Positions 639-27,300 of a stretch of DNA of 32,500 bases are shown here, one piece after another (the stretch's first letter is position 1; each line of letters opens with the position of its first letter). Source of the stretch: Chrysochromulina tobinii (lineage: Eukaryota); contig JWZX01003298.1 of assembly GCA_001275005.1 (NCBI GenBank), positions 1-32,500 on the forward strand, in the 5' to 3' direction. Under the pieces are notes generated by a model, which saw nothing but the letters and a program-made list of their open reading frames with translations, was not told the origin of the DNA and searched no databases. Both the position numbers and the translations under genes were made by a program.

Positions 639-888
639 GAGTGCCATCTGAGTGCCATCTGAGTGCCCTCTGAGTGCCTCTTGAGATTGCCATCTGAGTG
701 CCATCTTAGTGCCTCTGAGTGCCTCTTGAGATTGCCATCTGAATGCCATCTGAGTGCCCTCTGAGTGCCTCTTGAGATTGCCATCTGAGTGCCATCTGAG
801 TGCCCTCTGAGTGTCCCCGACCGGAGATTGAACTTGATTGCACTGGATTGCACTTGATTGCTCATCGCTTGATTGCCCTTGATGGCAG
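639..888 (+). repeat. Microsatellite block (11-nt CTGAGTGCCAT/CTGAGTGCCCT units, then 10-nt TTGATTGCAC-like units) ending in a CAG acceptor; probably intron-derived
   Basis: Tandem units are visible at 639-815 and 826-885. The block ends ...GATGGCAG at 888, directly before a coding-like frame starting at 889. Confidence 0.85.
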
Positions 889-1396
889 GTGCTCGCCGAG
901 CGGCGCGCCGCGCTCAAGAGGGAGGAGGGCGCGCGCCGTCGTGGCGAGGCGCGGCTGGCGCAGGAGCTCGCGTTCCGAGATCGTCTCCTCGCCAATCTCG
1001 CCAATCTCGCGGTGGGCAAGCAGGAGGAGGAGCTCTCGAGGGCCGTTGCAATCCAGGGCCATCAAGTGCAATCAAGCGCAATCAAGGAGCTCTCAAGGGC
1101 CGTTGCAATCCAGGGCCATCCCGCCGGCGCTCCGTTCGGCGCTCGACACGACGCCTCCGAGGGGAAGGCATGGAGGGCGCTGATGGAAGGCATCGCGGTC
1201 AAGGTGCGCCGGCCGCTGATGACCCTCGTTGATGAGCCTCGCTGATGAGCCTGATTGCAACGCGTCGTGCTGAGCAGGCTGATGCCGAGGCGCGCCGCTA
1301 TCACGCGGAGCTGCTCGCCGCCCTCGCGGATGCAGAGAACGAGAGGGTGGTGCGGTGGTGCGCCTCAAAAACAAGGCGATGAGCGCCTTTGGGTAG
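889..1396 (+). pseudogene. Orphan 3' fragment of a coiled-coil protein gene (exons 889-1203 and 1278-~1382/1396)
   Basis: VLAERRAALKREEGARRRGEARLAQELAFRDRLL...GIAVK, then a GT-AG intron at 1204-1277, then ADAEARRYHAELLAALADAENERVV. No start exon found. An 8-nt duplication at 1347-1362 appears to shift the C-terminal frame. Confidence 0.5.
1204..1277 (+). other. Predicted 74-nt spliceosomal intron with CTGATGA-type repeat filler
   Basis: AAG|GTGCGC...CTGATGACCCTCGTTGATGAGCCTCGCTGATGAGCCTGATTGC...GAGCAG|GCT. Removing it joins two coding-like segments in phase 0. Confidence 0.6.
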
Positions 1397-1913
1397 CCAC
1401 CTCGTTGGTAGCCGTAGGGGGGGAGGCGGCCACATGGCACCGCCTTTGGGGCCACAAGGATGGGTTTGGCGTGGCCTGGAGACGCAAGAGGGGGCCGAGG
1501 CGACGAGTGAGCACACCTCCGTACAGTCGACAGTAACGCTAACGGCAGATGAGCTCAGTCGACAGTCGTCAGCCACGACAGCACTCGACTCTCGACTCGG
1601 GCTGGTGATACTGATAGAACGGAACCGAGCGTCGTAAATTTTGCTTTTTCTGTGCGGTGCGTCCGGTCGGTACAGTAGCACAGGTCCACCGTTCAGCTGT
1701 GAGCCGTCTCGTCAGAGCTGTGGCTAAACGACCGCACCACCGCTTCGCACTTGATGCGTTGAACACTACCGACGTACGAACTCCGTACGTACGGTACTAG
1801 ACAACTTCAACCGCCGCGTTCAAAGCATCAAGGCTGGGCCTGGGTTGGAAAACATGCGCCGGACGGTCGGCACCTCGTATGCTCTGCGGAACGATCACCA
1901 GCTTTAGCAACCG

Positions 1914-4900
1914 TCATTTGCAAAGGCGCTGGGGACACGGCCCAGGGACGAGCGTGCGAGCCACCAGCTGCTCCCGTCTGCACGTTGGGCACTTTTTCTC
2001 GAGTCTCTCGATGGGCAGTGGGTCATTGTCTGATTGCCCGGAGCCTTGCAGCCACTGGCTCAAGCAGCGCTTGTGGTAGTAGTTGCCGCAGCAAGGAGTG
2101 TGCCCGCACGCGGCCTCGCCTCGAGAGCTTGCCGCGCTCAAGTCCAGGGCTTCAAGGCAGATGACGCAACGAGCTGCGCCAGGGTCATCGCCGCTCTCGG
2201 CCGTGAGCTGTGGCTGGAAGGGAATCGCTCCCTGCAAGACCACCTCTGCAAAGGCCACTGCAACTGCTAGTCGCTTGCGCGAGGCGTGCTCGGTCGTGGC
2301 AGCTGGTAACGACGAGGGCGAGCCTTGCTGCTTGCGCTGGTCCTCGCGCATCGATGTAAACGCCTCCGCCTGCTCGACTTCGCTTCGAGTGGGCGGGGCG
2401 GGGACTGGCGCCTGGCTTGGAGGACGGTGGGGGGGTCGGGGTCCCGGAATCAGCCAGCCGTCGACGAGGTCGCGAACGTGCCTCGCGTAGCACAAGGCCG
2501 CCTCCTCTGGTGTCGCGAAGGAGCCGAGGTAGTGCGTCCTGCCATTCTCCCAGGTCTCCGTCGTGTACCTTCCAGACCTGTTACACACGGCCTTGAAGCC
2601 CGTCTCACTGCTCGAGGACGGCACCAGCTCGAGCCCCTCGGCCGCTGCGGCCGCCCTGGCCTCGTCCGCTGTGAGCGGCCGCGGCCTTTCGACCCTCGCC
2701 TCAGCCGCCTCAGCAGCCGCTCGCTCCGCCCCAATATGCCTCGCGTAGCATAAGGCCGCCTCCTCCGGCGTCGCGAAGGTGCCGAGGTGGCGCATCTTGC
2801 CATTCTCGGTGGTGTGCGCTTTGTACTTGTAATAAGTCTTGGTCACGCCCTTGAAGCCTGACTCACAGGTCCACGACGGCACGAGCTCGAGCCCCTCGGC
2901 CGCAGCGACTGCCCTGACCTCATCGGCCTCGTCCGCCGTGAGCGGCTGCAAACCTTCGCCTCTCGCCACCGACGCCTCCGCCGCTGCTCGCTTCGCCCCA
3001 GCGTGCCTCGCGTAGCACAAAGCCGCCTCCTCCGGCGTCGCAAAAAAGCCGAGGTGGCGCGCCTTGCCATTCTCCTTGATCCGCCCCATGTACTTGCCAT
3101 GATGCTTGCACACGCCCTTAAAGCCCGTCTCACCGTATGACGACAGCACCAGCTCGAGCCCCTCAGCCGCCGCGGCCGCCCTGGCCTCGTCTGCCGTCAG
3201 CGGCTGCGGCAGTGTGACCCTCACCTCAGCCGCCTGAGCCGCCGCTCGCTCCGCCCCAATGTGCCTCGCGTAGCACAAGGCCGCCTCCTCCGGTGTCGTG
3301 AAGCTGCCCAGGTGACGCTGCATACCCCTCTCCAGAACCCGCGCCTTGTACATGCCATACTTCTTGGTCACGCCCCTGAAACCCGTCTCACTGCTCGAGG
3401 ACGGCACCAGCACGAGCCCCTCGGCCGCCGCGGCCACCCTGGCCTCGTCCGCTGTGAGCGGCCGCGGCCTTTTGCCCCTTGCCTCCGCTGCCTCTGCCAC
3501 CGCTCGCTCCGCCCCAGCGTGCCTCGCGTAGCACAAGGCCGCCTCCTCTGGGGTCGCGAAGGTGCCCAGGTGGCGCAAATTGCCTTTTTCCTCAATCCGC
3601 GCCTGGTACTTGCCATAATGCATGACCACGCCCTTGAAGCCCGACTCGCCGCTCGACGATGGCAATAGCTCGAGCCCCTCGGCTGCCGCGGCTACCCTGG
3701 CCTCATCCGGCGTGAGCTGCTGCGGTCCTTCGACCCTGGCATGTGCCGCCTCTGCCATCGATCGCTCCGCCCCGATGTACCTCGCATAGCGTAAGGCCGC
3801 CTCCTCCGGCGTCGCGAAGGTGCCCAGGTGGCGCTGGCCATTCTCCCTGATGGGCCGAGAGTTGGCATACTCGCTGTCATCAGAGGTCATCAGAGGTCAT
3901 CAGAGGTCATCAGAGGCCATCAGGCTGCACCTGATATGGGCCGAGTACTTGCCACGATGCTTGGTCACTCCTTTGAAGCCCGTCTCATTGCTCGAGGACG
4001 GCACCAGGTCGAGGCCCTCGGCCGCCGCCGCCGCCCTGGCCTCGTCCGCCGTGAGCGGCCTTGGGCCTTCGCCCCTCGCCTGCGCCGCCTCCGCCGCCGC
4101 TCGCTCCGCCCCGATGTACCTTGCGTAGCACAAGGCCGCCTCCTCCGGCGTCGAGAACACGCCGAGGTAGCGATGCTTGCCTTTCTCCTTGATGTGAGCC
4201 TTGTACCTGCCAGAGTGCTTGCGCACGCCCTTGAAGCCCGTCTCACCGCTCGAGGATGGCACTAGCTCGAGGCCCTCGGCCGCCGCGGCCGCCCTGGCCT
4301 CATCCGCCGTGAGCGGCTGCGGTCCTTCGCCCCTCGCCTCCGCCGCCTCCGCCGCCGCTCGCTCCGCCCCAGCGTGCCTCGCGTAGCACAAGGCTGCCTC
4401 CTCTGGCGTCGCAAACATTCCGAGGTTGCGCAGCGGGCCATTCTCCGTGATGCTTGCATTGTACTTGCTACCGTTCCTTGTCACGCCCCTAAACCCCGTC
4501 TCACTGCTCGAGGACGGCACCAGCTCGAGCCTTTCAGTCGCGGCCGCCGCCCTGGCCTCATCCGCTGTGAGTGGCCGCGGACCTTCGCCCCTTGCCTCCG
4601 CCGCCTCCGCCGCCGCTCGCTCCGCCCCAATGCGCCTCGCGTAACACAAGGCCGCCTCCTCTGGGGTCGCGAAGGAGCCGACGTAACGCCGCTTGCCATT
4701 CTCCCAGATCTGCCCCTGATACCTGCCATAATGCTCGGCCACGCCCTTGAAGCCCGTCTCATTGCTCGAGGACGGCACCAGCTCGAGCCCCTCGGCCGCC
4801 GCGGCCGCCCTGGCCTCGTCCGCCGTGAGCGGCCTTGGGCCTTCGCCCCTCGCCTCGGCCGACCCTGCCGCCGCTCGCTTCGCCCCAATGTGCCTCGCAT

Positions 4901-5606
4901 AGCACAATGCCGCCTCTTCCGACGTCGCGAAGGTGCCGAGGTAGCGCTGCGTGCCATTCTCCCTGATGTTTGCGATGTACTTGCTACCGTTCCTTGTTAC
5001 GCCCCTGAAGCCCGTCTCACTATATGACGACGGCACCAGCTCGAGCCCCTCGGCCGCAGCTGCCGCCCTGGCCTCATCCGGCGTGAGTGGCCGCGGCACT
5101 GGGACCCTCGCCTCGGCCGCCTCTGCCGCCGCTCGCTCCGCCCCAGCGCGCCGCGCGTAGGACAAGGCCGCCTCTTCCGGCGTCGCGAAGGTGCCGAGGT
5201 GGATCTGCATGCCATTCTCGGTGATCTGAGCCTTGTACTTGCCTTGATTCATCCGCACGCCCCTGAAGCCTATTTCACCGATTGCAGACGGCACCAGCTC
5301 GAGCCCCTCGGCCGCCGCGGCCGCCCTGGCCTCGTCTGCCGTGAGCGGCCGCGGCGCTGCGACCCTCGCCTCGGCCGCCTCAGCCGCCGCTCGCCCCGCC
5401 CCAATGTGCCTCGCATAGCACAAGGCCGCCTCCTCCGGCGATGGAAACTTGCCGAGGTGGAGCTTCATTCCATTCTCTCGGATCTGCGCCTCGTAGTACT
5501 TGCCATGTTTCTTGCACACGCCCTTGAATCCGGTCTCATTGCTCGACGAGGGCACCAGCTCGAGCCCCTCGGCCGCCGCGGCCGCCCTGACTTCCTCCGG
5601 TAGCAT
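1914..5606 (-). CDS. 12x AP2-domain repeat protein with C-terminal RING finger; join(3931..5606, 1914..3846), ~1202 aa
   Basis: ORFs 3900..5624 and 1914..3890 share a frame and are joined by an 84-nt GT-AG intron. There are twelve ~86-aa units with the AP2 signature (GF[KR]GV...Y.A.I.ENG...LG.F.TPEEAAL.Y). C-terminal CVIC...CCGNYYHKRC...W...CPTC. ATG at 5606 (MLPEEVR) matches the paralog start (MLPDQAR). Confidence 0.92.
2480..5600 (-). repeat. Coding tandem repeat, ~258-nt unit x12 (AP2 domain plus Ala/Glu-rich linker)
   Basis: The motif gcaccagctcgagccc and close variants recur at ~258-nt spacing (e.g. 5552, 5291, 5033, 4775). Confidence 0.95.
3847..3930 (-). other. 84-nt spliceosomal intron in AP2 repeat 7
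   Basis: ATCAG|GTGCAG...(CTGATGACCT)n...CCCATCAG|GGAGAAT. Splicing restores I-R-E-N-G as in sister repeats, while the unspliced frame contains TGA stops. Confidence 0.92.
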
Positions 5607-6139
5607 CGTGTCGCGACAACGCAAAGGATGATGCGCCCTTGCTCGAGAGACGAGCGCTGCGAGCGTCCGTTACTCGAAAACTTTTCTAAAAAAAGGTCAG
5701 CAAATCCGCTCTGAAAGTGTGGAGTCCTGTCTGTTACGCGATTCTGTACACTCTGCCATTTCGATCCAGAACAACGTCTGAGCGCGGTCCTCGAGTGTAT
5801 AGGTTCCCAATACGGCTCTAGTTTCCGGCGTTGAGTTGGCAGTTGTTATTTAGGGTACGAAGGCTTCCTTCTCCTACACCGACCCGGTCCGGTGTCCCCT
5901 GGTGTGCGCTTTGCACGCTCATCGACGAACAAATACAGAAATACCTTGTCGTGCTTCGGCGTGCACCGACCTGCGACCACCCGGACACTCCGCTCTCCGG
6001 ACGGCGGGCGGGGAGCGTGCTCGGTGCTGTGCGCTCTGGCTCTCTCCATGATACCGTTCTGCGCACTGCTCTCATGCGACCATCCATTCGATCCATTCAC
6101 GTTCTCCAATCACACTCTCGCAATGCCCATTCATCCAGA

Positions 6140-9100
6140 TCAATTGCCTAATTTGGGTGCAAGGAGTAGCCAGCCAGCTCGCCACTCATCAAGATCGATC
6201 ACGCCGTTACCATCAGTATCGAGAGAGGTCACCATGTCCTCGATCACCTCTGTGGGTACGTCGCCTCGGCCGCGCAGGAAGTCGCCCATCGCAGCCAAAG
6301 GGATCGTGTCACTTCCTGCGGCGACCATGTTGAACAGGGAATCTGCCACGATGGTGTCGTAGTGCGCCGTCGGCAGCGGCGCCTTGGGCGACGTTGGCAG
6401 CGGAGCCTCCTGTGGAACCTCCTTTGCTGTTGCTTCGACCTGTGCTGCTGCTTCAACCTGTGCTACTGCTGCAGCGATGGCGGAGCGTACGAGCCGAATG
6501 GCATCCGCCATCATCGCATCCGCATCACGAGCCGCCTGCACCGCGGCTGCCGCTTCAACGGCCGCCTCGACGGCCGCCGCGGCCACCGCCGCGCCTTGGG
6601 CGAGGGCCTGCTGTGAACACAGCTGGGCCGCCCTTGACTTCCTCTCCGCGCGCCCGCGCATCAGGGCCTGCATCAACGCCGCCGCATGCGCCTCCACACG
6701 CAGCTGCTTGGCCGCTGCGGATCGGCCGGTGTGCCCACGGTAGGAGGCCTGCATGATCGTGGCGGCCGCGCGGCGCGCCTTGAGCTCGTTGCGATAGCCG
6801 TTGGCGACGAAGCTCGAGCGCACGCGCGCCTGGATGGCAATCGTGGCCTTCTCGGCCGCTTCTTGCTCCGCCTTCGCCGCCGCCTCATCCTCCTCCGATG
6901 CCGCCGGTGAGGCTTTGGACGCCACGATTGCCTGCGCTGACTCAACCTCGGGCTCGACCTCGGGCAATACCTCGGGCTCGACCTTCGGCATGACCTTCGG
7001 CTCGACGGCAGCGATGCGCGCGTGCCTGCCAGACCTGCCATCCTGTTGTTGCCCTCGCTGCTCGGCAAGCTCGGAGCTCAACTCATCAATGAGCTTCTGT
7101 AGCTCGTGCGGATCGTGCGGGACCACGACAGCACGATCCGAGCCGCGAGCCGATGCCGCCACCGCGAGCCTTGACGTGCGAGATCGAGCGCCGCCCCGAG
7201 CGTGTGGGCCCTCCTTGGATGCGCCCGGTACGGCGCCGCCGATCGGAGGCAAACGAGTAGACGATTCCAAATTTGGTCGTGCAGCTGAGGAGCCGCGTGC
7301 TGCGGCCCGGCGGATACCCTTCCGCGTCAGCTCTGGGGCCGAGGTGGAGACGGACAGCGCTGACTGCCTTGTATGAGCGACTGCCACAGCCAGAGTTGGC
7401 ACCTTCTCCTCCTCGCCCGCCTCGCCCAGCGCACCCGCCTCGCCAACTGAGGCCACCTTGCCGGTCATCAGGAATGTGTTGAGCAAAGGATGGTGCGCAA
7501 GGCGTACAAGGAGCCACCGGGCGCCCGAGCCCCCCTCAGCCGCCAGCGAGTCGTCGCTGCCGTCCCCCTCCGTCGCCTCCGAGACCTCTGCCGGCTCCAT
7601 CTCTGTCTCGACTCGCCGGGTGCGACCTCCTTTGGCGGCGCCTCTGTTGGCGCCCCTGCCGCCCGATGGCACTCCTTCCACAACGGCCGTTGGCGCCCAG
7701 CTGGAACCGGAGGCTGTTTGCGCAGTGCGCTCGCTGGCAGGGGGGATCAGCGGCAGAGAGCCACGTGAACCAGTCGGCGGAGCGCCCGACGTCGCAAACT
7801 CCTCTCCTTCCCACGTCGGCACTTTCGAAGGCACCTTTGTCGGCACCGTTGTCGGCGGCTCATCATCCCAAGGATTCTCAATAGGATTCTCGAGCGCGAC
7901 TCTTCGTCGTCGATTCGAGGCGGCAGGATTCGAGGCGGCAGCGTCGTGCGTAGCGGCGGCTGTGCCCTCGCCCGGCACCTCCGGACTCGCACCAACAATG
8001 CCGCCCGCACCGACGGGCGCACTCACCGGCGCGCCAACGGCTGCAAAGGCCATCCCGGCGACGGCCCCCTCGGCGGCCGTCTTGCGTCCTCCTGCCTTGC
8101 GATGAGGCGCCGACGGCTCCGGAGGCGGTTGCACGGCCGCCAAGCGCGCGAGCGCGCGCGGCGACCGATCGAAGATGTCGCGTAGCAGCCGCGTGACCTT
8201 TGACTGTGTCGGGATAGGCTTTAGAGGCGGTAGTACAAGGGCCGACCTGGATGAGGCGAGGGTGCCGCTGCCGGGGGCTGAGGGGCCCACGATCACATCC
8301 GACGGCGACGGCAACGCGCTGGCTGTTGGGCCTGGCACCAAGACCGATGCCAAGAGCAGCGACGTGGCGGTGGTGGCGGTGACGTGTGCGCGTGATGGGG
8401 ACGCTATTCCAGAAGCAGCTGCCGATGCCGACGCCACCTCGCTGTCAATGTTGTCATCGGCAACCGATGTCGCGCCACCGCTCCCCACCGCCACCGCCGC
8501 GTGCGCATGTGCGGCGCCATCGGTGTGTACATGTCGCGGCTCGAGCTCCCCGCGCTGCAGCCGCGCATTCAAGCGCTGGGCTTCCAGCTGCCTTGCGCGC
8601 AGCTTGTCGCGCGCCTCCCGATCTTTTTCGAGCTCAGCCGAGATCGAGAATGACGAAGCCGGTGAGTCCTTGAGCCAAATGGCGGAGCCCGAGGCGGCGA
8701 GCAGCTGCTTACGCCTCTCGACCGACGCAAGCGAGCGCACCGGCGGCATGATCGCCGCTGCGTGGTGCGAGCCTGCGGCCACGAGAAGGGCGGGTCCGCC
8801 GAGGGCTACTGGTACAGCCTCCGCCATCGAGGGTACATGGGGGCCCTGACCGCACTGGCCGTCGCCATTGTCGCCCATGCAAAGCACCATACCGCCTAGC
8901 GTCTGCACCACCGTGTAGCTCTCACCGCACCCGATCCAGACCACGGGACGTGCCGGTAGGCACAGCGATGGGCAGCGGAGCGGCGTGCTCACGGCGCGTA
9001 CGGCGCTCGCTCCACCGCCGAGGCCGAGCTGTCCGTGACCGTTCGCACCCCATACGAAGACGTCGGAGCAAGCGCCACGCACTGCGAGGGCCGCGGAGTG

Positions 9101-9992
9101 TGCACCGCCCGCCGCCACCATCACCACAGCTTGCCCGTGCAAAGCGCCCATGACGACGCGCGGCTCGGAGCAACGGAAATCGTCGAGGCTCGGCAGCGCG
9201 CTCGGGACGACGCCGAGCCTGCCGCTGGCTACTAGGCCAAAGGCGAGCACGGTGTGATCTGCGAGCAGCACGAGCACATGCCTGGAGCTCGACGCCAGCT
9301 GCACGCACCCAGCGGAGCGCGCCCGCAGCGCCGCCACCTCCGTCGGCGTGAACCTATCGAGCTTGCCCGCCAGCCGTCCCCTCTTCGGCGTCGCGTCACC
9401 GTGACCGAGGCAGCCGCCGGCGCCCTCGCCCCAGCTGTAGACGTGCGCACGCTCATCACCCGCGCGCCGAAAGCTGCCCAGCGAGTGCGCCGCACCCGCC
9501 GCCGCGTCCAGCCACTCACCCTCGTCCGACGGGCGAGGCACCTCGGCAGGCTTGGTGACGGCGCTCGTGTGGCCGAGCCCGAGCTGACCGCTGCTGTTGC
9601 GGCCCCATGCAAAGGCGGCGCCCGCCGCGGAGAGTGCGATTGCATGGCGCGCGCCGCAAGCCACGCGCAGAATGTCGTGCTTTAGCAGCGCCCGGTGCGG
9701 CCTGGAGCACTCGCCGAGGCGTGGAGCCATCCGTGTTCCTCGCGTCGGCGAGCTCGCCATCCCCGTTGCTGCCGCACACGTACGTGGCGCCACGCGACGT
9801 GACCAGGACCGTAAACGTCTCGCCGGTGGCAATCAATACCGCGCGCTCGGCTGGAGGCAAGCCAAGGGCCGGTTGAGGCACCGTCTGCAGTGCCGGCTGT
9901 GGCTTGATCTCCTCGCCGTCAGCGTCGATCCGAATGCCCAGCTGGCTGTGAACGCCGCGGCCCCAGGCCATGGCTGTGGCATTGGTCGGCAT
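6140..9992 (-). CDS. RCC1-repeat protein with IQ motifs and C-terminal EF-hand(s); one apparent +1 frameshift near 9692
   Basis: RCC1 repeats (AWGRNSSGQLG, VWGANGHGQLG, CMGDNGDGQCG). The first repeats (AWGRGVHSQLG, VCGSNGDGEL) lie in the ORF 9516..9998 frame, from ATG 9992. Three IQ-like motifs (IQARVRS, MQASYRG, MQALMRG). EF loop DTDGNGVIDLDE. Confidence 0.85.
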
Positions 9993-10184
9993 GGCCAAGT
10001 GGCAAACCCCAGCCGCTCAGCTGCGTGCGCGTCTTGGTGTTGGTCGAACCGCATGAAACGCGAGAAAAGCGACCTGTGAACTTCCTGTGAACAGGGTGAC
10101 ATAAAGAGAACTTTGTAACAGGGTGACATAAAGCCCGGTGTAATGATATGGCTTTTATGGGACACCAACCATGAAAAGAGGTGT

Positions 10185-11288: not shown

Positions 11289-11451
11289 GAAAATGCAAGT
11301 TTGAGCGAATCACAGAAGGTGATAAGGGACGAGGTGTTGGGGGTGCCTCGGCAGAGTGGGATCTTCGAACTGTAGTACTCCGAAACTGCGGAAAGTAACG
11401 CATTCCCTGTGAATGAGCTGACCTTCACGAAGGACGTGCATCTTTCCGATC
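11289..11451. promoter_or_regulatory. Short divergent intergenic region, probable bidirectional promoter
   Basis: 163 nt between head-to-head ATGs (11288 on -, 11452 on +). No specific motif identified. Confidence 0.4.
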
Positions 11452-13449: not shown

Positions 13450-13706
13450 TCCTCGTGGTTCGGCTCGCTCACGCGTCGCGCCGCGGACAGCCCAAGACTT
13501 CTTGCGAGCTATGAAACCAGCATGCAAAGGGGAAAGGGGGGAGGGGGAATTTTGAGGAAGGTGCGAGATCGATCCGTATGAGCCCACGCACCGAAAAGGG
13601 ATCAGCCCCTCCGCCCCCTGAGCATCTATGGGGGAACTCGGGATTGTGGTGCACTCACTACACGATGCGGTTACGAGTGGTACCTTGCTCGACTCACGCA
13701 CACTGC

Positions 13707-14858
13707 GTGTATCACATACACTGTACCTGTTCTTGCTGCAGCCACCTTGGACACAACATATGACGCTACAAGTACCATGCGCGGTGTGGCTGCCGTCAAG
13801 GGCCAGCTGCGACCTTTTCCACAGCCTTCGCCCCTGCTCCCCTGTCGCAGCCGCCGCCCTCGCAGCCGCCTCTGGGTGGCGGCCTTGTGTCAGACTTCAG
13901 GCTTTGGTTCACAGCTGCTGCACATAGCCTTTCTTCTCCTGCATGGCGAGCCCTGGATCGTCTTGATCTGCTCACACCGGTCGCCCACCTGAACCGGGGG
14001 CATTGGGCACAGTAGGATGGTACGCACAGGGCGTGGGCTTGGAGAGGGGAACCCAGAAGCTAAGGACCTTCGACATCAGGGATTTGGCCGCGGACAACAT
14101 GTCCGGCCTCTGCGTGAAGTCTTTGCACGCCGACGGGCTCGGGGAGGGCAAGGTGCGCCTCGTCGACGGCGATGGTGGTGCAGCCGCGCCGGGCGCACGC
14201 CCAGCGCAGCAGCGGCACGTCGCGCACGAGGCTCTCGGGCGCGACGAAGAGCAGCTGCGCTATGCCGCGCGATGGTGGTGCAGTCGCGCCAGGCGCACGC
14301 CCAGCGCAGCAGCGGCACGTTGCGCACGAGGCTCTCGGGCGCGACGAAGAGCAGCTGCGCCGCGCCCGCGGCATAGCGCATCGCCACGTGCGGCCGCACG
14401 CCAAAGAGCAGATGCTGCATGGGCGACGACTCGCTCGGAAGCGTGGTTGTGACCGCGGCGTCAACAATGCAAGCTTCCGAGCCGATACGCTCTTCAACGT
14501 AGAGGACGACCTCCGGGATGGCCAACACCTGTAACAGTGAGGGGATTGTCTTACTGCAAGCAGGGACAAGGAGGTAAGGGAGATAGATATGAGTGGCGTA
14601 CCTGATGTTTCACTTGACACCAAACCAAAACCTTGTCAAGCACAAAGTCCTTGCGTCCATTGACAGGCCCTGATGTTTATGGCGTGGCTTCTTCTTCACC
14701 ATCTTATCGACGTGCTCACGCAATGCTGGTGAAATACTGAGAGCTGGCAAGGGCATCGGCGACGGAGCCGGCAAGGGCATCGGCGACGGCGAATTGAATT
14801 CAAACTCTTCTTGGTGTATCACATAGTGACTGTACCTGTTCTTGCTGCAGCCACCTTG
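13707..14858. repeat. Dispersed direct repeat pair: 30-nt exact core at 13720-13749 and 14829-14858, plus 12-nt upstream match
   Basis: actgtacctgttcttgctgcagccaccttg occurs twice, each copy preceded by gtgtatcacata. Confidence 0.9.
14060..14528 (-). pseudogene. RecQ-like SF2 helicase fragment disrupted by a 100-nt tandem duplication
   Basis: AQLLFVAPESL (motif Ib-like) occurs twice and TIAVDEAH (motif II) once. The two copies are in different frames. AG acceptor just upstream of 14528. No other helicase motifs seen. Confidence 0.65.
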
Positions 14859-15303
14859 AACCACGCCAGGAATTTTTTCCAGAATCCTCATAACCTGATT
14901 TCGGGTTGAGTGCAGTGACCTTTCATGGTCTCAGAGCGTCTTGATCCTTCCTTTTCGTGGAGTGCCCCGAGTGCTGAGAGCAGTTCAGAGAATTTGTTCA
15001 TTGCGTCGGTAGCCATCGCTACAGTATCGTGGCAGCTACAGTATTGTGTTCTTCGTCGCACGAATTGCACGGATCTCCTGTCGCGCACATGCCAGAGCGT
15101 ATCTATCTCGTGAATGTTCACACCTGGTGTGGCGAGCGCGGGGGACCGACGACCGCGACGAAACTGACTTACTGACCACAAGTGAACCGGGGGGTATTCA
15201 TACGCTTTTTTGGTCGACACACGATGTAGACGCTTGTGCAGACGCTTGGAGACGCACCCACCTCCCTCGACAGCCCTCCCGTGGTGCTGTTTCCTCCCTT
15301 GCG

Positions 15304-15747: not shown

Positions 15748-16078
15748 TGTATGCCCCACCACATTGGACATGGAGACGCGCATGTTTTGCTCTGGTCTAT
15801 AAGCAATGGTTTGAAGGAGTTGCATGAGAACGATGTGTCTTGTTTCTCATAACTTCAGCTTTATTCTACGGAGCATTCGAATCGGAGTCTCGAGGTTCGT
15901 ATGCGGTATGGTTCTACCATTGGTCGACAATGCAGACGAAATTGCGCTGCGACGCGGAGGTAATCACCTCGCGGCGCACGTGTGCGGACCCGTCGCGCAG
16001 CCCACCCATGGCGCAGCCGCAGCCTCCGGCGGCCGTCCCCGCTCAACGCGGAAGCCATCGCAACACGCCCTCGTCGGT

Positions 16079-17045: not shown

Positions 17046-17201
17046 AATTATTTTTGGTGGCCACGTGTGAACGTTAACACGACAGACGCGACAACCGGTG
17101 CTACGGTACTGTTACTGTGTGTGTATAAAGTGTGAGAGCGGTTGGCCTGGGGACCTCAAGGAACCACGATTTGCTCCAAGTGGATGCTTCTTCTCGTGTG
17201 A
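17046..17201. promoter_or_regulatory. Short divergent intergenic region, probable bidirectional promoter
   Basis: 156 nt between head-to-head ATGs; TATAAA at ~17124. Confidence 0.35.
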
Positions 17202-18578: not shown

Positions 18579-18703
18579 TGTGTGACAACAAAACCCGGGG
18601 TAAGAGGATTTGTTAGAAAGACCCGCCGACTTGGCCGTTTTTGAGGTTAATCTCGGCGCCTCCGGTTCGCGAGAATTCCTACTTGTGAAGAAGAATCGGT
18701 CGG

Positions 18704-19393
18704 ATGCAGCGATCCTTCTCCTCCCTCTCGGCGGCGAAGCCGATCCATTGCGCTCTCGACTCGGGCGCGTGCCCGGGCTCTCCTGTGTCGAGCTATGCGG
18801 CCTGCTCGGTCACAGCCAGCTTTCAGATGAAGTGACGTCACCATGTGCGATCGAACCTCCGCACCGCCTGTTTAAGCCGGACGCCTGCGACGACGTCGCG
18901 TCGTTCTTGACGCCCGCACGCCCGACTCGACACCGCTGCTGATCCCGCATGTGCCGTGCTCGTGTGCAGCTGCTCCACCGTCAAGACGGAGATCGAGGCG
19001 CGCATCGCCCGCGGCTATGATCGCAAGTCGCACCCTGGCCACTACGATCTGATGGTCTCGGAGGAGCAGTGCACCAAGGCTAGCCGCACGACGGGCGCCG
19101 GTGCCAAGCCAGGCCCGTACACGGACCTTATCGGATTCGATTACGCCGAGGTCTCGGGCCATCCCACGCAAATGTGCCGCGTGGTCGCGTGCAGCGAGAG
19201 CCAAGTATCGTCCAAGTGCGACTTCTCGACCAACTTTTGCAACATGTATAACCTGTTCTGCCCGGCATCCGACGGCTGCACGCCCGTGACCGTCGACATT
19301 GGCAAGAACCTCACGTGGACCGACGGCGCCTCCTGCAACCACGGCTTCCAGTGCGGCGGCCAGGAGGCGGACATCACGCAGTGCACGCGGTGA
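18704..19393 (+). CDS. Small Cys-rich hypothetical protein; tentative join(18704..18831, 18970..19393), ~183 aa
   Basis: Exon 2 is strongly coding-like (CSTVKTEIEARI...ACSESQVSSKCDFSTNFCNMYNLFC) after a TGCAG acceptor at 18969. The donor AA|GTGACG at 18832 joins in phase to MQ...CPGSPVSSYAACSVTASFQMN. The 5' structure is uncertain. Confidence 0.6.
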
Positions 19394-19797
19394 GAGCTCA
19401 ACAGTCCGAATGACCAAATCTCTGAGTCAGGGTCGTCGGAGGGTGTCCCAAGGCATCATCAGTTACACCGGTGTCCATCACGTGTATGCCCAAGCGCATA
19501 GAGATCTGTCTTACTTTGAATTGACCTCGTGTGCCGGTCAACTTTTCCTCCTTGGCACATTGCCTTGGGCCCTTGGCATTTAAACCTTGCAAAAACCTTG
19601 GGTTCCTTGGTAGGCTTTCGTGCTGGGCCCCCAAAATTTTCATTTGTCGTGGGGCCTCTCGGCAAAAAGCGTCGGACGCTTTTCGATTCACGAAACAGAG
19701 TCAGCGCGTTCACAGCCAAGGAAACCCCTTCCCGCGAGCTGCACCCGCGAGCCCTCTTCAAGTCGATGGGCACGAACGACTCTGCACGGAAGTGATC

Positions 19798-20736
19798 ATG
19801 CTGACGATCCTCATGAAGCAGTCGCAGCTGCTCGAGAAGGAACTCTTCGAGGATCGGGCACAGATGGAGGTGTTGAAACGTAGGCAGGCAGAGCATGACG
19901 CGGTAGTCAAGGAAAAGGATGAGAAGATAGCCGAGCTCGAGGAGGAGCTTAGCAAGCGAAGGCCGCTGAACCAGAGAGTCTTGTGCATTGCTTGCGGTAG
20001 AGTCGCGGGCGAGGTGGAGGAGGAGGAAGCGGTGCCGGAGCCAAAGAAGGAGCCGGAGATCGACACCGCCGAGATACTCGCCAAGCTCGAGCTGCTCAAG
20101 AAAAAGCTCATGTCGACAGAGACGAAGCTCACCTCGGCAGAGCTCCAAAAGGCGATACTCGAGCTGCAGCTCGAGACGAGGACGAGCAAGATCCGTCGCG
20201 AGCTCACGCGCGACCTCGAGAACATCCAGGCCAGGGCACGCGAGGCGCTCGCCACCGTCGCGAAGACGAAGGAGCAGGCGCAGGCGGCGGAGCGCAAGCT
20301 CAGCGACGAGATCGCAACCAAAGGTGTCCAGATTAGGGAGCTACAGGACGGCCTCAAGCGGCGCGACGAGCAGATCGAGTTCTTGATGCAGGTGCACGAC
20401 GCCTCCAAGGAGTGTGAATGGGTACCGGTCTTGGGTGTGGTCTCGGGCGCTCCCAGTCATGATCCCAGCGCCTCGCCAGCAGGCACGAGCGTCGTACCGG
20501 GCGCTGTTCGGGGCGCCGGTGGCTCACCCTATGCGGCAGCGCGACACATCAACAGCGGACTGGGCAGCGGCGGCGGCGGCGCTGGTCGCAACGGTGCAGT
20601 GGGCGCTGCTGTTGCGGAGCTGACCTTTGGCCAAGCCGTCGCCGCCCTCGGACCTTGGCAATGTCGCGTGTGTACACTGCGTAACGAGGCGGCGAGGACG
20701 CTGTGCGAGGCGTGCGGCAGCGACCGCTTTCAGTGA
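19798..20736 (+). CDS. Coiled-coil protein with C-terminal RanBP2-type zinc finger
   Basis: Long E/K/L-rich helical region. The C-terminus WQCRVCTLRNEAARTLCEACGSDR fits W-x-C-x2-C-x3-N-x6-C-x2-C. Start uncertain; 19798 is the first in-frame ATG. Confidence 0.85.
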   Translation: MLTILMKQSQLLEKELFEDRAQMEVLKRRQAEHDAVVKEKDEKIAELEEELSKRRPLNQRVLCIACGRVAGEVEEEEAVPEPKKEPEIDTAEILAKLELLKKKLMSTETKLTSAELQKAILELQLETRTSKIRRELTRDLENIQARAREALATVAKTKEQAQAAERKLSDEIATKGVQIRELQDGLKRRDEQIEFLMQVHDASKECEWVPVLGVVSGAPSHDPSASPAGTSVVPGAVRGAGGSPYAAARHINSGLGSGGGGAGRNGAVGAAVAELTFGQAVAALGPWQCRVCTLRNEAARTLCEACGSDRFQ

Positions 20737-21319
20737 CCCGGTGCCCTGTGCTTGTCGCGCGGCCTCACCGCCTCATCTTGGAGAGCGTTTGAATGTGATC
20801 GGAACGCACCGCACTTTGGCAGACCGCTCGCGTTTCATCGTGGCCGGGAGCGCAAATGGCCTGAAGCCTTTTAGAACAAGCTGAACGAAGCCTAAATAGC
20901 TGAACCGTAGTCATTAGACGCGTCCACGTTAGAATTTTCCTTTCACTCGTAAGTTTTCTTTAAAACGTATGAAGATTGTTCAATGAAGAACACCCTACAT
21001 GTACAACGTCTTAGGACTAGCGGCAAGTACCGTACATATCGATCATCACGAGATATCCGGATGTAGTACCATGTACGAAAGCGAGGAGGGCGAGACTGGT
21101 ATCCATGGTGGTATCGCGTGGGGGTAGGCTGACATGGAGCCAGCGCTGGCATCGCTGAGGCCACCGACCGGACACGCTGCCTCGTCGTGCCTGCCGTGTC
21201 GACAGGACCGCACCGGAGTCGCGTGCACAAATAAAAGTCAAATTGGTGCCGTCACAGGCCGCTCTCCTGTCTCCCCACAGGCCGCAACGCCGGCGTGGCA
21301 CCATCCAGACGACGTAGTT

Positions 21320-22582
21320 TCAGAGCGTATCCTCGAGGTCATCAATTTCCCTCTGGATGGCATCGATCTCTTCGTCCGTCTTGCTGACGCCTTCTGCCTG
21401 CCACGCGCTCAGTATGCCGTCCGCCAAAGCAACCTCGCCGCTCGCCTCGCCGCTCCACTTGCCGCTCCCCGCGCCGCCTTTGCCGCCCTCGGGGCCTCCC
21501 TTTTTGAGCCTGCCTTGCAGCGCCATCTCCGCAGCGAGATTCTTCGGTAAAGCGAGCACCTGTGCGGAGCGGTGTGTAAGCACGAAGGTCAAACTAGGTA
21601 CGGAGCTATCGTACAAGTCGTGATGGCATCTGATGGCATTTGATTGCCCTCTGATGGCATTTGATGATATGTGACTTGGCACGTAGCCGCGGCCATCTCA
21701 TCAGAGGGCAATCAAATGCCATCAGAAGCCATCAGAGGGTAATCAAATGCCATCAGAGGGTAATCAAATGCCATCAGCGGCCCTTTAGAGAGCTTTCAGA
21801 GGGGTGCGGGCACTTCGACCTCCTCGATGGCATCGGGTTAGGGTTAGCATGCAATCGGGTTCGGGCGCAGGCACTCCGACCTCCTCGATGGCATCGGGAT
21901 CGATGCCGAGCGCCTCGGCCTTCTTCTTCTGCTTCGTGAGCTCGAGCAGCTTCTTCATACGCACGAGCTTCGCCACGCGCTGCGCACGCTCCGCCTCCGC
22001 GCGGATGGCCGCGTACAGATTACCCATCACACCTTCGCGCTCGCGCTCGACGTCGCTGCCCGCACGTCGAAAGCCAGCCCGCGCCTCCTCAAGGAGTTCG
22101 AGTGACCGGCTGAAACGGTCTGCGCTCGCCTTGTCGCCGAACACGGACACCGATTCCATCAGTGCCTTGTCGCCGCGCGCCTTCGCCGCCGCACGCAGCT
22201 CGAGCTCCTCTTTGGTTGGTGGTGGCGGACGTGTCGCAGTCTTCCTCACGCCGGGGACGAGAGCGGCGTCGACGCGCGCTGCGACCATTGCGAGCAGCTG
22301 CTGCTGTTCCTCCGTGGCGCCGCCGGCCGCGTCATACGCATCGCGCGTCTCCACGATCAGCATGCGCGCGCGCTCTGCCTGCTTCTGTTTGAGCGCATCC
22401 AAAGCTGCCAGCAGCAGAGCATCAGGCGATCCGCGAGCGTCGCCTGGACCACTGTCAGCGCACATCGTGCACATATCAGCACGGCATGCTACCACCGAAC
22501 ACGTCCAGCAGTTGCACCAGCTGCATGCTGGCTGGCAGCTCAGCAGGATCGCCGCCACAGCCACGCATTTCGTCGTGCGCAT
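21320..22582 (-). CDS. Secreted/targeted hypothetical protein with Cys-rich N-terminus and helical body; join(21881..22582, 21320..21559), ~313 aa
   Basis: Signal-like MRTTKCVAVAAILLSC. ORF 21785..22588 joins ORF 21320..21682 in phase 0 via GAG|GTCGGA...CACAG|GTG (…DAIEE|VLALPKN…). Confidence 0.75.
21560..21880 (-). other. 321-nt intron containing satellite in both orientations, a duplicated donor site and GGGTTAGGGTTAG
   Basis: GT at 21880-21879, AG at 21561-21560; repeats at 21621-21667 and 21699-21777. Confidence 0.75.
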
Positions 22583-22987
22583 ATTCACGGCGTCGTCGTG
22601 AGCGCGTCGTATTCCCGCTCAGATACGGCCCCCCAAAAGGGCACTTCTGGTGCCATTTCTGTGCGCAATCTACTAGAGAGTTCACACCCACGCAATCGCC
22701 TTTTCCTTCTCGCTAGCAACAACACTCATCCCGTCGGGACTCCACGGAACCCAAATGCAAATCCTCAGCGCCAAGCGCATGGCCAAGCGCTGGCGTTGGG
22801 GTTGAGGGTGTCGTGTGGTTTTGAGATTCGGGCAGCGGCCAAGCCCTCTGCCCGTCTGCCGTCTGCCCTCTGTGAAAGGGAGTGGGAGGGAGTGAAGGGA
22901 CGAGAGTGGGAAGAGCCACAGAGAGTGCTGCAATGCCGCACAAGCTATTTGTCTTCCGCCCCTGTGCGTATGAAAGGCCTGGTGTCT

Positions 22988-24247
22988 CTAGTAGCTTGGT
23001 GGTGCCTTGGAAGGATCTGCGAGGTTGATCTTTCGGAGCACGCTGAGCACCTGCTCGCCCGCGGTCATCGGTGGGTAGAGGCGCAGCGCCTCATCGGTCG
23101 CAAAGTCGCCAAGGGGCCGCAGTTCTTTTGTGGACGCGACGTGGGCGAAGAGGGTCGATGAGATGCGCCAGGGGGGGCGGCCAGCCGCTGCCCGCCGCTC
23201 GGCCACCTCGACCGTCTCCGGCAGCACAACGACCTCGTGCATGCCCGCAATCACCTGGCCGCCCGTCAGCCGCTCCATTTGCATGCCAGCCTGCACGAGC
23301 AGGCAGCCGTTGGGGATGGCCACACGCCGCTTGGTACCGTCTCGCAGCCAAACGTGCAGGCCGGGGTAGCGCGACTTGCCGTGGATCGTGAGCAGGTTGA
23401 GGTCGTTGTGGAATCCTGCGAGGATCGTATTGACCTCGTGGTGCTTGCCCAGGTCCGAGCCCGTCGGTGCGAGCAGGTGCGGCCCGTGCTCCATCAGAGA
23501 GGTGATCGCGCTCGAGGGCAGTCCAAACCCCACAGCCGCCATCTCGGCGCACGTGCTCACCGACGCGAGCATCAGATGGCCCCACCGGTCCATCGTCTCT
23601 CCCCAGCGCGGGAAGGCGGCCGGGTGCACGGGCGCCGCATTCAGGTCCTCGTAGCCGGACACTTCCTTCGGACGCTCGCCAATTCGCCAGAAGAAGCGCC
23701 ATTTGGGGTCGGGACCGGAGATCGGCAGCGGCTTGTGCTCGGACGGCATACCCTCGATGCGCTCGATGCACTCGGCGTCGGTCTTGCAGATCGGGATCTC
23801 GACCATGCTGGGCGTCGCGCCTACCTGGTAATGGAACTCCTTGCGCACGTCGGCCATCTTGAGCTCGTCGGGCTGGGCAAAGTAGTCCTCCATCAGGTCG
23901 AGGAAGGCGACCTCGTCCGCCTCGGACACGCGCGAGTCGCGGAGCAGCGCAATGCCCGTCGCCTTGAGCGACTCGGCGAGCGCCTTGCATGCCGTCTGTG
24001 CCTCGACGGACGACGGGTCGTTGAGCCAGCTCGACACGTCGATGACAGGCGCGATGGTGGAGACGGGCGGCAGCTTCATGGGCTCTTCGGGCGGCACGGC
24101 CATCTTGGCGCTTGACTTGGACGCCTCCATGGCAAGCAAAATGTCGCGGATGCCCAGGATGGGATCGGCGGGGCGGGTGCGCAGCACCTCGCACACCGCC
24201 GCGGCCAAAGCCTCCTGCACGCCATGCGCCGCGATGTATTCGGACAT
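22988..24247 (-). CDS. 2OG-Fe(II) dioxygenase (IPNS/DIOX-like) with N-terminal Dpy-30/RIIa-like motif
   Basis: HxD motif (GFHNDLNLLTIH), distal His (AGMHEV) and RxS (WRISSTLF); DIOX_N-like PVIDVS. N-terminus EYIAAHGVQEALAAAVCEVLRTRPADPI. Confidence 0.9.
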   Translation of the reverse strand: MSEYIAAHGVQEALAAAVCEVLRTRPADPILGIRDILLAMEASKSSAKMAVPPEEPMKLPPVSTIAPVIDVSSWLNDPSSVEAQTACKALAESLKATGIALLRDSRVSEADEVAFLDLMEDYFAQPDELKMADVRKEFHYQVGATPSMVEIPICKTDAECIERIEGMPSEHKPLPISGPDPKWRFFWRIGERPKEVSGYEDLNAAPVHPAAFPRWGETMDRWGHLMLASVSTCAEMAAVGFGLPSSAITSLMEHGPHLLAPTGSDLGKHHEVNTILAGFHNDLNLLTIHGKSRYPGLHVWLRDGTKRRVAIPNGCLLVQAGMQMERLTGGQVIAGMHEVVVLPETVEVAERRAAAGRPPWRISSTLFAHVASTKELRPLGDFATDEALRLYPPMTAGEQVLSVLRKINLADPSKAPPSY

Positions 24248-24383
24248 CGAGGGCGGCGCTACCGGTACCGGTACACAGGGGGCGTTAAAGTGTGAAGCTT
24301 CGGTGTCGGTGTGAATTCATACTTAATGATAATAAGATCGTGCACACCCCGTTTTCGTGCTCGGTCTTCATTCACATGACGCA

Positions 24384-27300
24384 TCAACGTCCATTCACAG
24401 AGGACCGCAACATGACGGCGAGGACATCAAGCACAATCCACCCCCACAGCAAGGAGAATCCTAGCGCCTCGCCCCAGGCATCCGCCAGCGTCGCGTCGTC
24501 GCCGAATCGCGATTGACCTATCCACAGGGACAAGACGCCGCAGGCAAAGAGGATCGTTGTGGCGACAACCCAGGGAAAGACCCTCCAGAAGCGCACGGAG
24601 CTCGACCAGACGCGTGCCCACGCGCGCCACCCATGCCAACCTCGACCGCACCTCGAGCGTCGCTCAGGTGCGCGGGCGGCGCCCCCGATGATGACCTCGG
24701 CCTCTGGCGATCGTCGTGGCCACCGGGGAGAGATGCACAGAGTCGAACGGAGGCCATTGTAAGTCAGCAGGCAACAGACTGCCCCCAGCAACGACGCACA
24801 AGCGCATAGAGACTGGAGCCAAGACGGCACGACCAGCCATCGACGCCACCGAGGATGTGCTCGAGATGAGGCAGCAGGCTTCGCTGAGGTGGGCTCGGCC
24901 CCACCGTCGCCTGCGCCCGCACTCATCAAGGCGCCCAGGAGGGCACTCCGTGTTTCGTCAGACACGCTGCCGAGGAATTCGATGAGGTGACACACGTCCT
25001 CTTCGTGAGCGTAGTCCCGCCAGTCAAAGAACGCTCGGGAGATGGCACAGATGGTCTGAAAGGACGAGGCCGTCGGGTCGGGCTCGTCGATGAGCACAAG
25101 CTGTGTCGACGGCACATGCGTGCCTGCGATCCCTTGTGCACGGATCGGAGCCTGATGGTGCTCACGCTTGTGAGGACCTATGCGCGCATGGCCCAGCCAA
25201 CCAGCTGTTGGTGGTGAGGGCGGGGGAGAGAGCGGCGGGGCAGAGGGTGGCGGGGTAGAGGTCAGCGCGGCAGAGGGCGGCGGTTGCGCGGCGGCGAGGG
25301 CAGCTGAAGGTGGTCGCCGTTTCAAAGGTGGAATTTCGTCAACCGTGTCCGCGCGGCCATCGTTGCGGCCATCCCCGCGGCTCGAACGCCCGCGCGCCCG
25401 CGATTGCAGACGCGTCGCCGCTGCCTCCTTCTCGTCCATCCCCGCGCCACCCTCATCCGCCTGATTGCCACCCTCATCCGCCTGATTGCCACCCTCATCC
25501 GCCTGATTTGGGGCGTCATCCGCCTGATTTGGGGCGTCAACCGCCTGATTGCCACCCTCATCCGCCTGATTTGGGGCGGCGGTCCTCGCATCTCTGCTAC
25601 TGGCAAGCCGATGCGCGTCGGCAAAGTGTTGCGCGTCGGCAAAGTGCTGCACGTTGGCAAGGCAGCCGCGCGCAAACGGATCAAGTCTCGGGTCGTTGAG
25701 CTCGATGATCGCCTGCAGCCGCTCGAGCCCACCACAGCGCTCTAGCTGCTCGACACACGTGATCTCGGTGCACAGGTTCTGAAGGGCACCTAGGGCGTAC
25801 ACGAGGGTCAGCCGGTCCTGATCATCAGCGAAGAGGTGCGGCAACACGAGGCTGAAGGCGCCCGCCGCCCTGAGTAGCGCCTTCGTCTCCTCTGCGTGCG
25901 GGTCGACAGCCTCGCATGCAAGGTCGGCCACGAGCATGAGGGCCATCCGATGCACCTGATGAAGGAGGCAATCGTGAGTCATCAGTGATCATCAGAGGTC
26001 ATCAGCCACGAGCATGAGGGCCATTCGATGCACCTCGGCCGAGGGGCTTCCAAGCAGCCCGACGATGAGCTCGACGCCGCCCGTGGCGCGCAGGCCCTCG
26101 CACAGCGCGATCGCATGGTCGCCGTAGCTGCCGTTGGCAAGCAGAGCGAGCTGGTGCAGCGCCTTGCCCTTGTCCGCCTCGCTGCTGCTGCTCAGCCGAA
26201 GAACTCCGACGAGACCCATCAGCTCCCGCGCGGGCGTCAGCACGGGGGGTAGCTCACGCTTGTGAGGACCTATGCGCGCATGGCCCAGCCAACCAGCTGT
26301 TGATGGTGAGGGCGGGAGAGAGAGCGGCGGGGCAGAGGGTGGCGGGGTAGAGGGCAGCGCGGCAGAGGGCGGCGGTTGCGCGGCGGCGAGGGCAGCTGAA
26401 GGTGGTCGCCGTTTCAAAGTCGCGAGCTGCTCGAGTGCGGACCATGGTCGATTGCGGACCAAAGACGCACGAATTCGTGCCGACCAGGGTCGCACCGCAG
26501 CCGCAGTGGTCTCAGGCTCTAGGGGGGTTCGTGGTCGAGAAGTGGGGGGGCTGTTCCGTGAAGGGAAGGTAGCCGGAGGATTGAGAGGGCTGGGCGTCTC
26601 GGACTCGCTCAGCCCCACAGGGTGCAGCTCCTCGATCTGGGGGTAGCTCGATCTGGGTGTAGCTCGATCTGGGTGTAGCTCCTCGATCTGGCCTGCGTCC
26701 TCTTGATCTTGCGACTCTTCGAGCCGCTTGAGAGGAGTGCGAGGGACGCCCCCTCCACCATCTCCATCCGCATGCAATGGCATCATGCCTGATGCCGATG
26801 CCTGGTCCTTCGCCCAAGCCACTGACCTGGCAGCATCCTGCTTGATCAACTGCGTTGGCGCTTGATCGACGACGAGCGATGCGTGCTCCCGTTCGGCCTC
26901 CTCAACATGTACTAAGGCAAGCGGCCTTGCCTGATCAGGATACCGTTCGGCCTCCTCCCGTACGGCCTGCAGCCGCGTGATGCCGAGCATCCGAGGGCGC
27001 ATGGCGAGCAGTGCCGCACGGACGTGCTCGACAAGCAGGTCCTCGACGACCTGCCGCCAATCGGAGAGCGCCGCGAGCACACTGGCGTGGTCAAAGGCCA
27101 GGTGCAGCGCGGCCGTTGCCCTCAGCTGCGAACCCTTGTGCTTCTCCACGCTGTCCATGACTGCTACAGCCGCCATGTGGCTGATCCGCCTCTCTCGCCC
27201 AAAGAGCTCATCGAGGACTCTTGCCATCAGCAGCGCAATGGACGCTGAGATGAGCCCAGAGAGCATCGTTTGGAGCGTCGTGATGCTTTCGTGTGTGAGA

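What the first reader, a model, noticed from the sequence alone, without database searches (positions are those of the whole stretch)
639..26033. One TGA-rich microsatellite family fills unrelated introns: a possible non-transposon intron-generating system with an orientation rule
Seen: related 10-11-nt units (CTGATGACCT, CTGATGAGCC, TTGATTGCAC, CTGAGTGCCAT, TGATGGCATT) occur at 639-888, 1204-1277, 3847-3930, 21621-21777 and 25956-26033, in four unrelated genes, often beside a 13-36-nt duplication of local sequence. Where the TGA strand is sense, the insert lies in a predicted intron; the unit matches the branch consensus CTRAY and, not being a multiple of 3, places stops in several frames. 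Where the stop-free ATCA strand is sense, related inserts stay in frame as coding sequence (1064-1084, 25446-25577). No TIRs or shared unique body as in introner transposons were seen. Inference: reiterative templated synthesis (telomerase-like or Pol-theta-like) at breaks creates insertions that become introns. I know of no description of this but cannot check the literature.
Basis: partly seen in the sequence, partly recalled or inferred. Interest (0 to 1): 0.8.

Follow-up and report, generated by a model that had tools for sequence, protein, structure and literature searches.

The report
Satellite-filled duplications create new introns
In the freshwater alga Chrysochromulina tobinii, a 10-base repeat sits between two copies of a short stretch of gene sequence and is spliced out as an intron, and it was likely copied in from similar introns during DNA repair, which would be a way to gain many introns without a classical transposon.

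Summary
The satellite is real and genome-wide; the window encodes C. tobinii protein Ctob_005414 letter for letter. Across 141 metagenome loci the usual form is local sequence D, then (CTGATGACCT)n often ending in a conserved module CTGATTGCCTCCCTCATCAG, then D again. D is 10-54 nt and usually begins GT/GC, supplying the donor; the module supplies the acceptor and a predicted branch point. Flanking duplications of 12 nt or more: 53 of 203 inserts against 23 of 1500 controls. Orientation: 124 TGA-sense to 6 ATCA-sense by codon model; 19 to 0 by Pfam. Intron 1204-1277 is spliced in RNA; 3847-3930 lies in 1 of 12 AP2 repeats; homologues lack 25956-26033. The orientation rule most likely reflects selection. 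Best mechanism (inferred, 0.5): microhomology-primed copying from existing satellite introns at staggered breaks; RT-based insertion is the main rival. The scan noted a repeat-flanked intron family earlier in this genome (e1-2577349). From recall, 10-11-bp repeats were reported in Emiliania; I could not read that paper.

The parts
639..813 (+). 11-nt satellite block (CTGAGTGCCAT, 46-nt higher-order repeat) at the junction between the AP2-gene upstream region and a gene fragment lacking its 5' exon; not an intron between two exons of this window
   Evidence: TRF; the upstream exon seen in RNA/DNA loose ends is absent from the window; X9 depth 36 on 420-668 against 68-81 on 848-1517
839..888 (+). 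3' part of a short satellite intron (51 nt in the complete copy, bracketed by GCAGGTGC)
   Evidence: X9 DNA loose end joins an exon ending AAGCAGG to 839; X17 RNA joins the same exon to 885; the complete form is read from those loose ends, not from one contig
1029..1120 (+). 35-nt duplication (1029-1063, 1086-1120) around a 22-nt ATCA-sense filler (1064-1085); net 57 nt, in frame
   Evidence: sequence; retained in X17 RNA contig 1034-1114
1204..1277 (+). 74-nt GT..AG satellite intron, TGA strand sense; the next exon begins with the satellite-like GCTGATGCC
   Evidence: spliced joint in X17, loose end in X15, unspliced in DNA X9
3847..3930 (-). 84-nt GT..AG satellite intron in one AP2 repeat; its last 13 nt copy the upstream exon end and give the acceptor; contains 16 foreign bases
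   Evidence: 1 of 12 AP2 units caught by the anchor carries it; removal restores GKYSAHIRENG; Pfam AP2 on both sides
21560..21880 (-). 321-nt older intron of Ctob_005414 with satellite in sense (21695-21777) and antisense (21620-21670) orientation
   Evidence: P0042 found letter for letter after removal; RNA contig ends at 21557/21561 and 21879 with overhangs; same position inferred in P0002
21802..21898 (-). 36-nt duplication across the donor (21863-21898, 21802-21837) with a 25-nt filler holding telomere-like CTAACCCTAACCC; present in some strains only
   Evidence: sequence; read-through proteins with and without it
25446..25577 (-). coding 21-nt repeat (QADEGGN) derived from an antisense copy of the 20-nt terminal module
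   Evidence: 18/20 matches at 25461, 25482, 25545; 0.01 expected; 3 copies in P0053 against 6 here
25956..26033 (-). 78-nt canonical element: 29-nt duplication (26005-26033 copy of 25927-25955) giving GT, satellite units, module ending TTCATCAG
   Evidence: homologous ARM-type proteins align with a 26-residue gap here

Best explanation
The satellite introns are duplication-plus-filler insertions, likely made when a staggered break or stalled fork is repaired by copying the 3' half of an existing satellite intron. Shown: the D-satellite-D structure, the variable length of D, the conserved end, the strand bias, splicing of one intron and absence of two others from paralogues or homologues. Inferred: a free 3' end pairs by a few bases with a satellite unit elsewhere, copies several units (with slippage), and rejoins the other end, which after fill-in carries the duplicate D; copying that stops at the donor's CATCAG|GT junction leaves AG flush against D. 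If D begins GT or GC, the insert is a complete intron (donor from D, predicted branch site CTGAT at -17 and AG from the module) and is excised without changing the protein. TGA-sense inserts carry stops in all frames and survive only as introns; ATCA-sense inserts are stop-free but lack the signals and survive only when in frame. Each new intron becomes another template, so the family would spread without coding capacity. The same process also hits old introns and earlier inserts. The enzyme (Pol-theta-like or strand-invasion repair) and whether the template is DNA or its transcript are untested.
For: Duplications of 12 nt or more flank 53 of 203 inserts against 23 of 1500 controls. Of 112 TCATCAG ends, 50 have a copy of the next 22 nt upstream, against 4 of 90 for sequence 45 nt further on and 1.5% for swapped sequences. 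D is 10-54 nt, median 20, n=38, and starts GT in 26 and GC in 6 of 38. The 5' junction falls at all ten phases of the unit, with overlap in 11, blunt joins in 2 and linkers in 20 of 33. Inserts without the module show D-satellite-D too, in both orientations. One insert carries foreign bases (3847-3930) and another duplication has a telomere-like filler. After the module, exons start GTRC in 55 of 133 against 158 of 6787 other CAG sites. Gains: AP2 1 of 12; homologue gap; introns falling inside EF-hand, TBC and FAD-binding domains. Orientation 124:6 and 19 of 65 against 0 of 68 Pfam hits.
Against: A fixed end plus variable duplication plus ragged 5' junction is also the signature of target-primed reverse transcription. 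No donor-recipient pair was traced. Only 12 of 38 duplication events are clean de novo cases, 15 are nested and 11 unclear, and the open-frame criterion is weak (116 of 309 arbitrary donors pass). 80 of 133 ends lack an exact duplication of 8 nt or more. Only 54 of 205 inserts have the TCATCAG end. The overlap counts have no formal null. Just 7 of 234 inserts are mixed-orientation, fewer than blind insertion into old introns might give. Loci were picked by one satellite pattern, are not a genome-wide sample and may mix species.
Confidence: 0.5

Rival explanations
1. Target-primed reverse transcription: a LINE- or Penelope-type RT acting in trans copies an RNA that ends at CCCUCAUCAG (a SINE-like transcript, an excised intron or an unspliced transcript) into a nick, giving a variable target-site duplication and 5' truncation.
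For: Conserved 20-nt end flush with D; variable D; ragged 5' junction with overlaps; tandem multimers; several other recurring intron ends (TTGCATGCAG, CCCGATCTCGCAG), as expected if intron RNAs are templates. Non-LTR-derived introners exist (about 5% of classified families, 10.1101/2024.06.04.597373).
Against: No poly(A) tail or unique 5' body; about three quarters of inserts lack the end; 14 of 38 duplications are 25 nt or longer; no RT family among 133 flanking frames or 16 window frames, a small sample.
Confidence: 0.25
2. The satellite colonised pre-existing introns by slippage because it mimics branch and splice signals; duplications are secondary slippage products and few introns are new.
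For: Intron 21560-21880 is at the same position in P0002 (85% identical protein; 14 of 16 codons compatible from the acceptor, max 13 in 200 shuffles), where about 100 nt read open in one frame; its duplication is strain-variable while the intron is shared; 15 of 38 events are nested.
Against: It does not explain the AP2 repeat intron (1 of 12), the 26-residue gap in homologues, or duplications whose left copy follows uninterrupted coding sequence (12 of 38).
Confidence: 0.12
3. A telomerase-like enzyme with a short RNA template adds the 10-nt unit reiteratively at breaks.
For: Tandem units of variable number; one duplication has a telomere-like filler.
Against: Units vary within and between arrays, the end module is not a repeat, and the telomere-like filler occurs once in the window and in none of the 141 loci. 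The haptophyte telomere repeat is TTAGGG (recalled), unlike this unit.
Confidence: 0.05
4. A MITE-type introner moved by a DNA transposase, with CTGATGA/TCATCAG as terminal inverted repeats and an internal satellite.
For: TCATCAG is the reverse complement of the unit's first 7 nt and folds with it (-7.0 kcal/mol as RNA); element-borne acceptor with donor from the duplication is a known introner layout.
Against: Known DNA-transposon introners have fixed duplications of 3-9 bp; here D is 10-54 nt and the 5' end has no fixed phase.
Confidence: 0.05

Closest known systems
Intron gain by repair of staggered double-strand breaks in Daphnia pulex (PMC4202315, passages read; review PMC3443670, passages)
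   Same: New introns with a direct repeat of the adjacent exon end at the opposite end; secondary insertions and duplications inside young introns
   Different: Daphnia exon-shared repeats are 4-12 bp; here they are 10-54 nt and the filler is one dispersed satellite family with a ready-made acceptor module
Introners / introner-like elements: Symbiodinium and Polarella classes 4/5 and 6/8/10 (10.1101/2020.10.14.339549, abstract and first part of Results); marine Chrysochromulina MAG and Emiliania introners (PMC9860276, passages, section 7 and supplement search)
   Same: Inserted sequence carries the 3' splice site, duplication supplies the 5' site; many unrelated genes hit; orientation-dependent intron creation
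   Different: Those have fixed 3-9-bp duplications, often TIRs and a shared body; the Chrysochromulina example has a 4-bp duplication and carries its 5' site. C. tobinii was in that paper's genome list but not in its introner table (supplement file was cut when stored)
Non-LTR retrotransposon and SINE insertions, including non-LTR-derived introners (10.1101/2024.06.04.597373, passages and section 5; mechanism from my own knowledge)
   Same: Variable duplication, fixed end on one side, ragged junction on the other
   Different: No tail, promoter box or RT partner seen; most inserts lack the fixed end
10-11-bp tandem repeats of the Emiliania huxleyi genome (Read et al. 2013; recalled, paper not held)
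   Same: Recalled as abundant 10-11-bp repeats in a haptophyte genome, left unexplained
   Different: I could not check whether sequence, intron location, strand bias or duplications were described

Membership tests
Introner (DNA-transposon type) | Family of introns alike end to end | tested here: not met
   Only a 20-nt end and a variable satellite are shared; lengths 30-340 nt
Introner (DNA-transposon type) | Fixed short target-site duplication (3-9 bp) | tested here: not met
   10-54 nt, median 20, n=38 events selected at 10 nt or more; full histogram shows no single peak above chance lengths
Introner (DNA-transposon type) | Terminal inverted repeats | tested here: inconclusive
   End is an inverted copy of the unit start, but the 5' junction falls at all ten phases
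Introner (broad sense) | Insertion into exons creates introns at lineage-specific positions | tested here: met
   3847-3930 and 25956-26033; not true of 21560-21880
Introner (broad sense) | Mobilised by a transposable-element enzyme | not testable with these tools
   No genome held; records behind loci not searchable
Intron gain by break repair (Daphnia type) | Direct repeat of exon sequence at the far end of the new intron | tested here: met
Intron gain by break repair (Daphnia type) | Presence/absence polymorphism of the intron in populations | not tested
   Only a duplication inside an intron was seen to vary
Non-LTR retrotransposon / SINE insertion | Variable duplication with one fixed end | tested here: met
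   In the module-bearing subset (54 of 205 inserts)
Non-LTR retrotransposon / SINE insertion | RT-coding partner with a matching end, tail or internal promoter | tested here: inconclusive
   No RT hit in 133 flanking frames; genome not searchable
Telomerase-made interstitial repeats | Unit equals the telomere repeat and is uniform | tested here: not met
   Units heterogeneous; telomere repeat TTAGGG is recalled, not checked

The most novel reading that the evidence does not exclude
Spliceosomal intron ends copy themselves around the genome: a host reverse transcriptase or RNA-using repair polymerase uses satellite-intron RNA as template at staggered breaks, so introns breed introns with no transposon of their own, and selection sorts the products into introns on one strand and new coding repeats on the other.
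Probability: 0.2. Interest if true: 0.9.

Novelty: new variant of a known kind. Interest (0 to 1): 0.7.

Why it matters
How new spliceosomal introns arise in bulk is an open question; mass gain is credited to transposon-derived introners, and break repair to scattered one-off events. Here one non-coding satellite with a built-in acceptor appears to be reused as filler at many sites, bridging the two routes, in a cultured alga with a public genome that an introner screen listed but did not report. The same events also add coding repeats when reversed. It is directly testable by comparing strains and orthologues, and might explain the haptophyte 10-11-bp repeats.

Tried and rejected
No whole genome was held and records behind the loci were not searchable for RT, so no genome-wide intron census or enzyme search was done. 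The first read-laying (13 kb at 90% likeness) was swamped by repeat joints and did not list the 21560-21880 joint. No satellite match in viral contigs with two patterns. Two matches in prokaryote genomes; L143 is a chance match in a coding frame, L142 was not read. No homologue of the 889-1203 exon among longer proteins; the representative search for it never ran, so the 57-nt coding insert is not shown to be derived by comparison. No Rfam hit in the window. A plain amino-acid test of P0002 against exon 2 was not significant (454 of 2000 shuffles); the codon-position test was. The own-offset control was inflated by multimers (19 of 133) and was redone with satellite-free queries. The open-frame test is weak. 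The duplication finder failed for L024, L047 and L053; only L010 (48 nt) and L048 (78 nt) were measured as in frame. Two of the six ATCA-sense calls (L008, L053) look like miscalls on inspection. A few of the 133 'ends' (L047, L050, L135) are ATCA-strand units, not modules; they were left in the counts. A direct G+TGA donor from the satellite is rare (6 of 80). Paper searches listed no description of this family; passages of PMC4580454, PMC2784329, PMC4028052, PMC3152781, PMC8775090 and PMC12480563 did not mention it. bioRxiv supplements are closed and may list it.
Full report
Organism and data. The window is GC-rich eukaryotic DNA. A homologue search with the exon at 21881-22444 gave haptophyte proteins; a member of the top cluster, P0042, is named by its source as Chrysochromulina tobinii Ctob_005414 and is found letter for letter once 21560-21880 is removed. 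No whole genome was held, so wider tests use 141 metagenome loci found with one satellite pattern on both strands (about 3000 estimated from 3 of 64 parts; long flanks for 80). They may include related species.

Observation. The arrays are real and beyond chance. All six units tested give stops in three frames on the TGA strand and none on the other. Locus by locus: 1204-1277 is spliced in polyA RNA and continuous in DNA. 3847-3930 interrupts 1 of 12 AP2 units and its removal restores the repeat. 21621-21777 lies inside a 321-nt intron with both orientations; RNA contigs end at its boundaries with overhangs. 639-888 fails: RNA and DNA loose ends show another upstream exon, absent from the window, and a 51-nt intron whose 3' part is 839-888. 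The ATCA-sense insert at 1064-1085 stays in RNA, and the coding repeat at 25446-25577 is an antisense copy of the family's end module (18 of 20 bases, three times; 0.01 expected).

Anatomy across loci. 133 distinct satellite ends carry TCATCAG, with consensus CTGAT(T/G)GCCTCCCTCATCAG and an A at -17 in 117. The next bases are GT in 87 and GC in 15. A copy of those next bases lies upstream of the satellite in 50 of 112 testable cases, against 4 of 90 and 1.5% in controls. Over all inserts, 53 of 203 have a flanking duplication of 12 nt or more, against 23 of 1500 random segments. In 38 satellite-free duplications of 10 nt or more, length is 10-54 nt and the left copy starts GT or GC in 32. The 5' junction has no fixed phase; 11 of 33 overlap the unit, 2 are blunt, 20 have linkers. 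Twelve of the 38 follow uninterrupted coding sequence, 15 are nested in earlier satellite tracts, 11 are unclear. The open-frame criterion alone is weak (116 of 309 arbitrary donors pass), but Pfam places introns of L004, L005, L016 and L030 inside EF-hand, FAD-binding and TBC domains (7 of 22 exon pieces had hits below E 0.001 or near it, most had none). Only 54 of 205 inserts have this end; others have different recurring ends or none.

Orientation. A codon model trained on the window of 234 inserts TGA-sense, 6 ATCA-sense, 2 in conflict and 102 undecided. Independently, 19 of 65 flanking frames on the TGA strand and 0 of 68 on the other hit Pfam. ATCA-sense inserts that could be measured are in frame (48 and 78 nt; 57 nt in the window). 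Because the module also occurs antisense, selection is enough to give the rule; the rarity of antisense copies in old introns (7 of 234 mixed) is not fully explained.

Evidence against a pure gain story. The 21560-21880 position is shared with P0002, an 85%-identical protein whose tail reads through an apparently satellite-free intron. Strain proteins show the intron and satellite shared while the 36-nt duplication with telomere-like filler is present in some and absent in others. So duplications also arise inside existing introns.

Mechanism. I favour microhomology-primed copying from existing satellite introns at staggered breaks (0.5): it covers long variable duplications, inserts with and without the module, foreign and telomere-like fillers, and nesting. 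RT-based target-primed insertion (0.25) explains the fixed end equally well and cannot be excluded. Old-intron colonisation (0.12) is true of some loci but not of the clean gains. Telomerase-like reiteration and a MITE (0.05 each) fit poorly. All enzymatic steps are inferred.

Comparison. It works like Daphnia break-repair intron gain and has the splice-site layout of some introners, but fails the fixed short duplication and shared-body tests for DNA-transposon introners. C. tobinii appears in the genome list of PMC9860276 but not in its introner table (file cut when stored); Emiliania and marine Chrysochromulina MAGs do have introners there. Ten searches listed no description of this family, but the library lacks most subscription papers, including the Emiliania genome paper, which I recall reporting unexplained 10-11-bp repeats. 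Note e1-7377680 is an unchecked parallel of a telomere-filled duplication in another protist.

Verdict. Real feature; new variant of a known kind; interest 0.7.

Noticed in passing
window 1-465 and 2460-5606 (-): Genes built of about a dozen tandem 258-bp AP2-domain repeats.
   Followed up: partly
window 1346-1362: An 8-nt duplication in the window is missing from all three runs that cover it (X15, X17, X9): assembly error or strain difference.
   Followed up: no
window about 25176-25336 and 26256-26419: A direct repeat of about 165 nt brackets the ARM-like segment inside the large REJ-domain gene, as if that segment had itself entered as a duplication-flanked insert.
   Followed up: no
window about 13710-13750 and 14818-14860: A stretch of about 35 nt recurs 1.1 kb apart in a lower-GC region; possibly ends of a mobile or duplicated segment.
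   Followed up: no
L035, L053, L130 (TTGCATGCAG); L068, L032 (CCCGATCTCGCAG-like); L102, L128 (ATATGGCAG): Other recurring intron 3' ends follow the same satellite, several with duplications.
   Followed up: partly
window 420-1560: Depth in DNA run X9 doubles over 848-1517 and the gene's 5' exon is missing: a truncated duplicate joined at a satellite, an allele, or a misassembly.
   Followed up: partly
L004, L016, L032, L068, L136: Duplication-plus-satellite units occur as head-to-tail multimers, so one site can hold two to five acceptors.
   Followed up: partly
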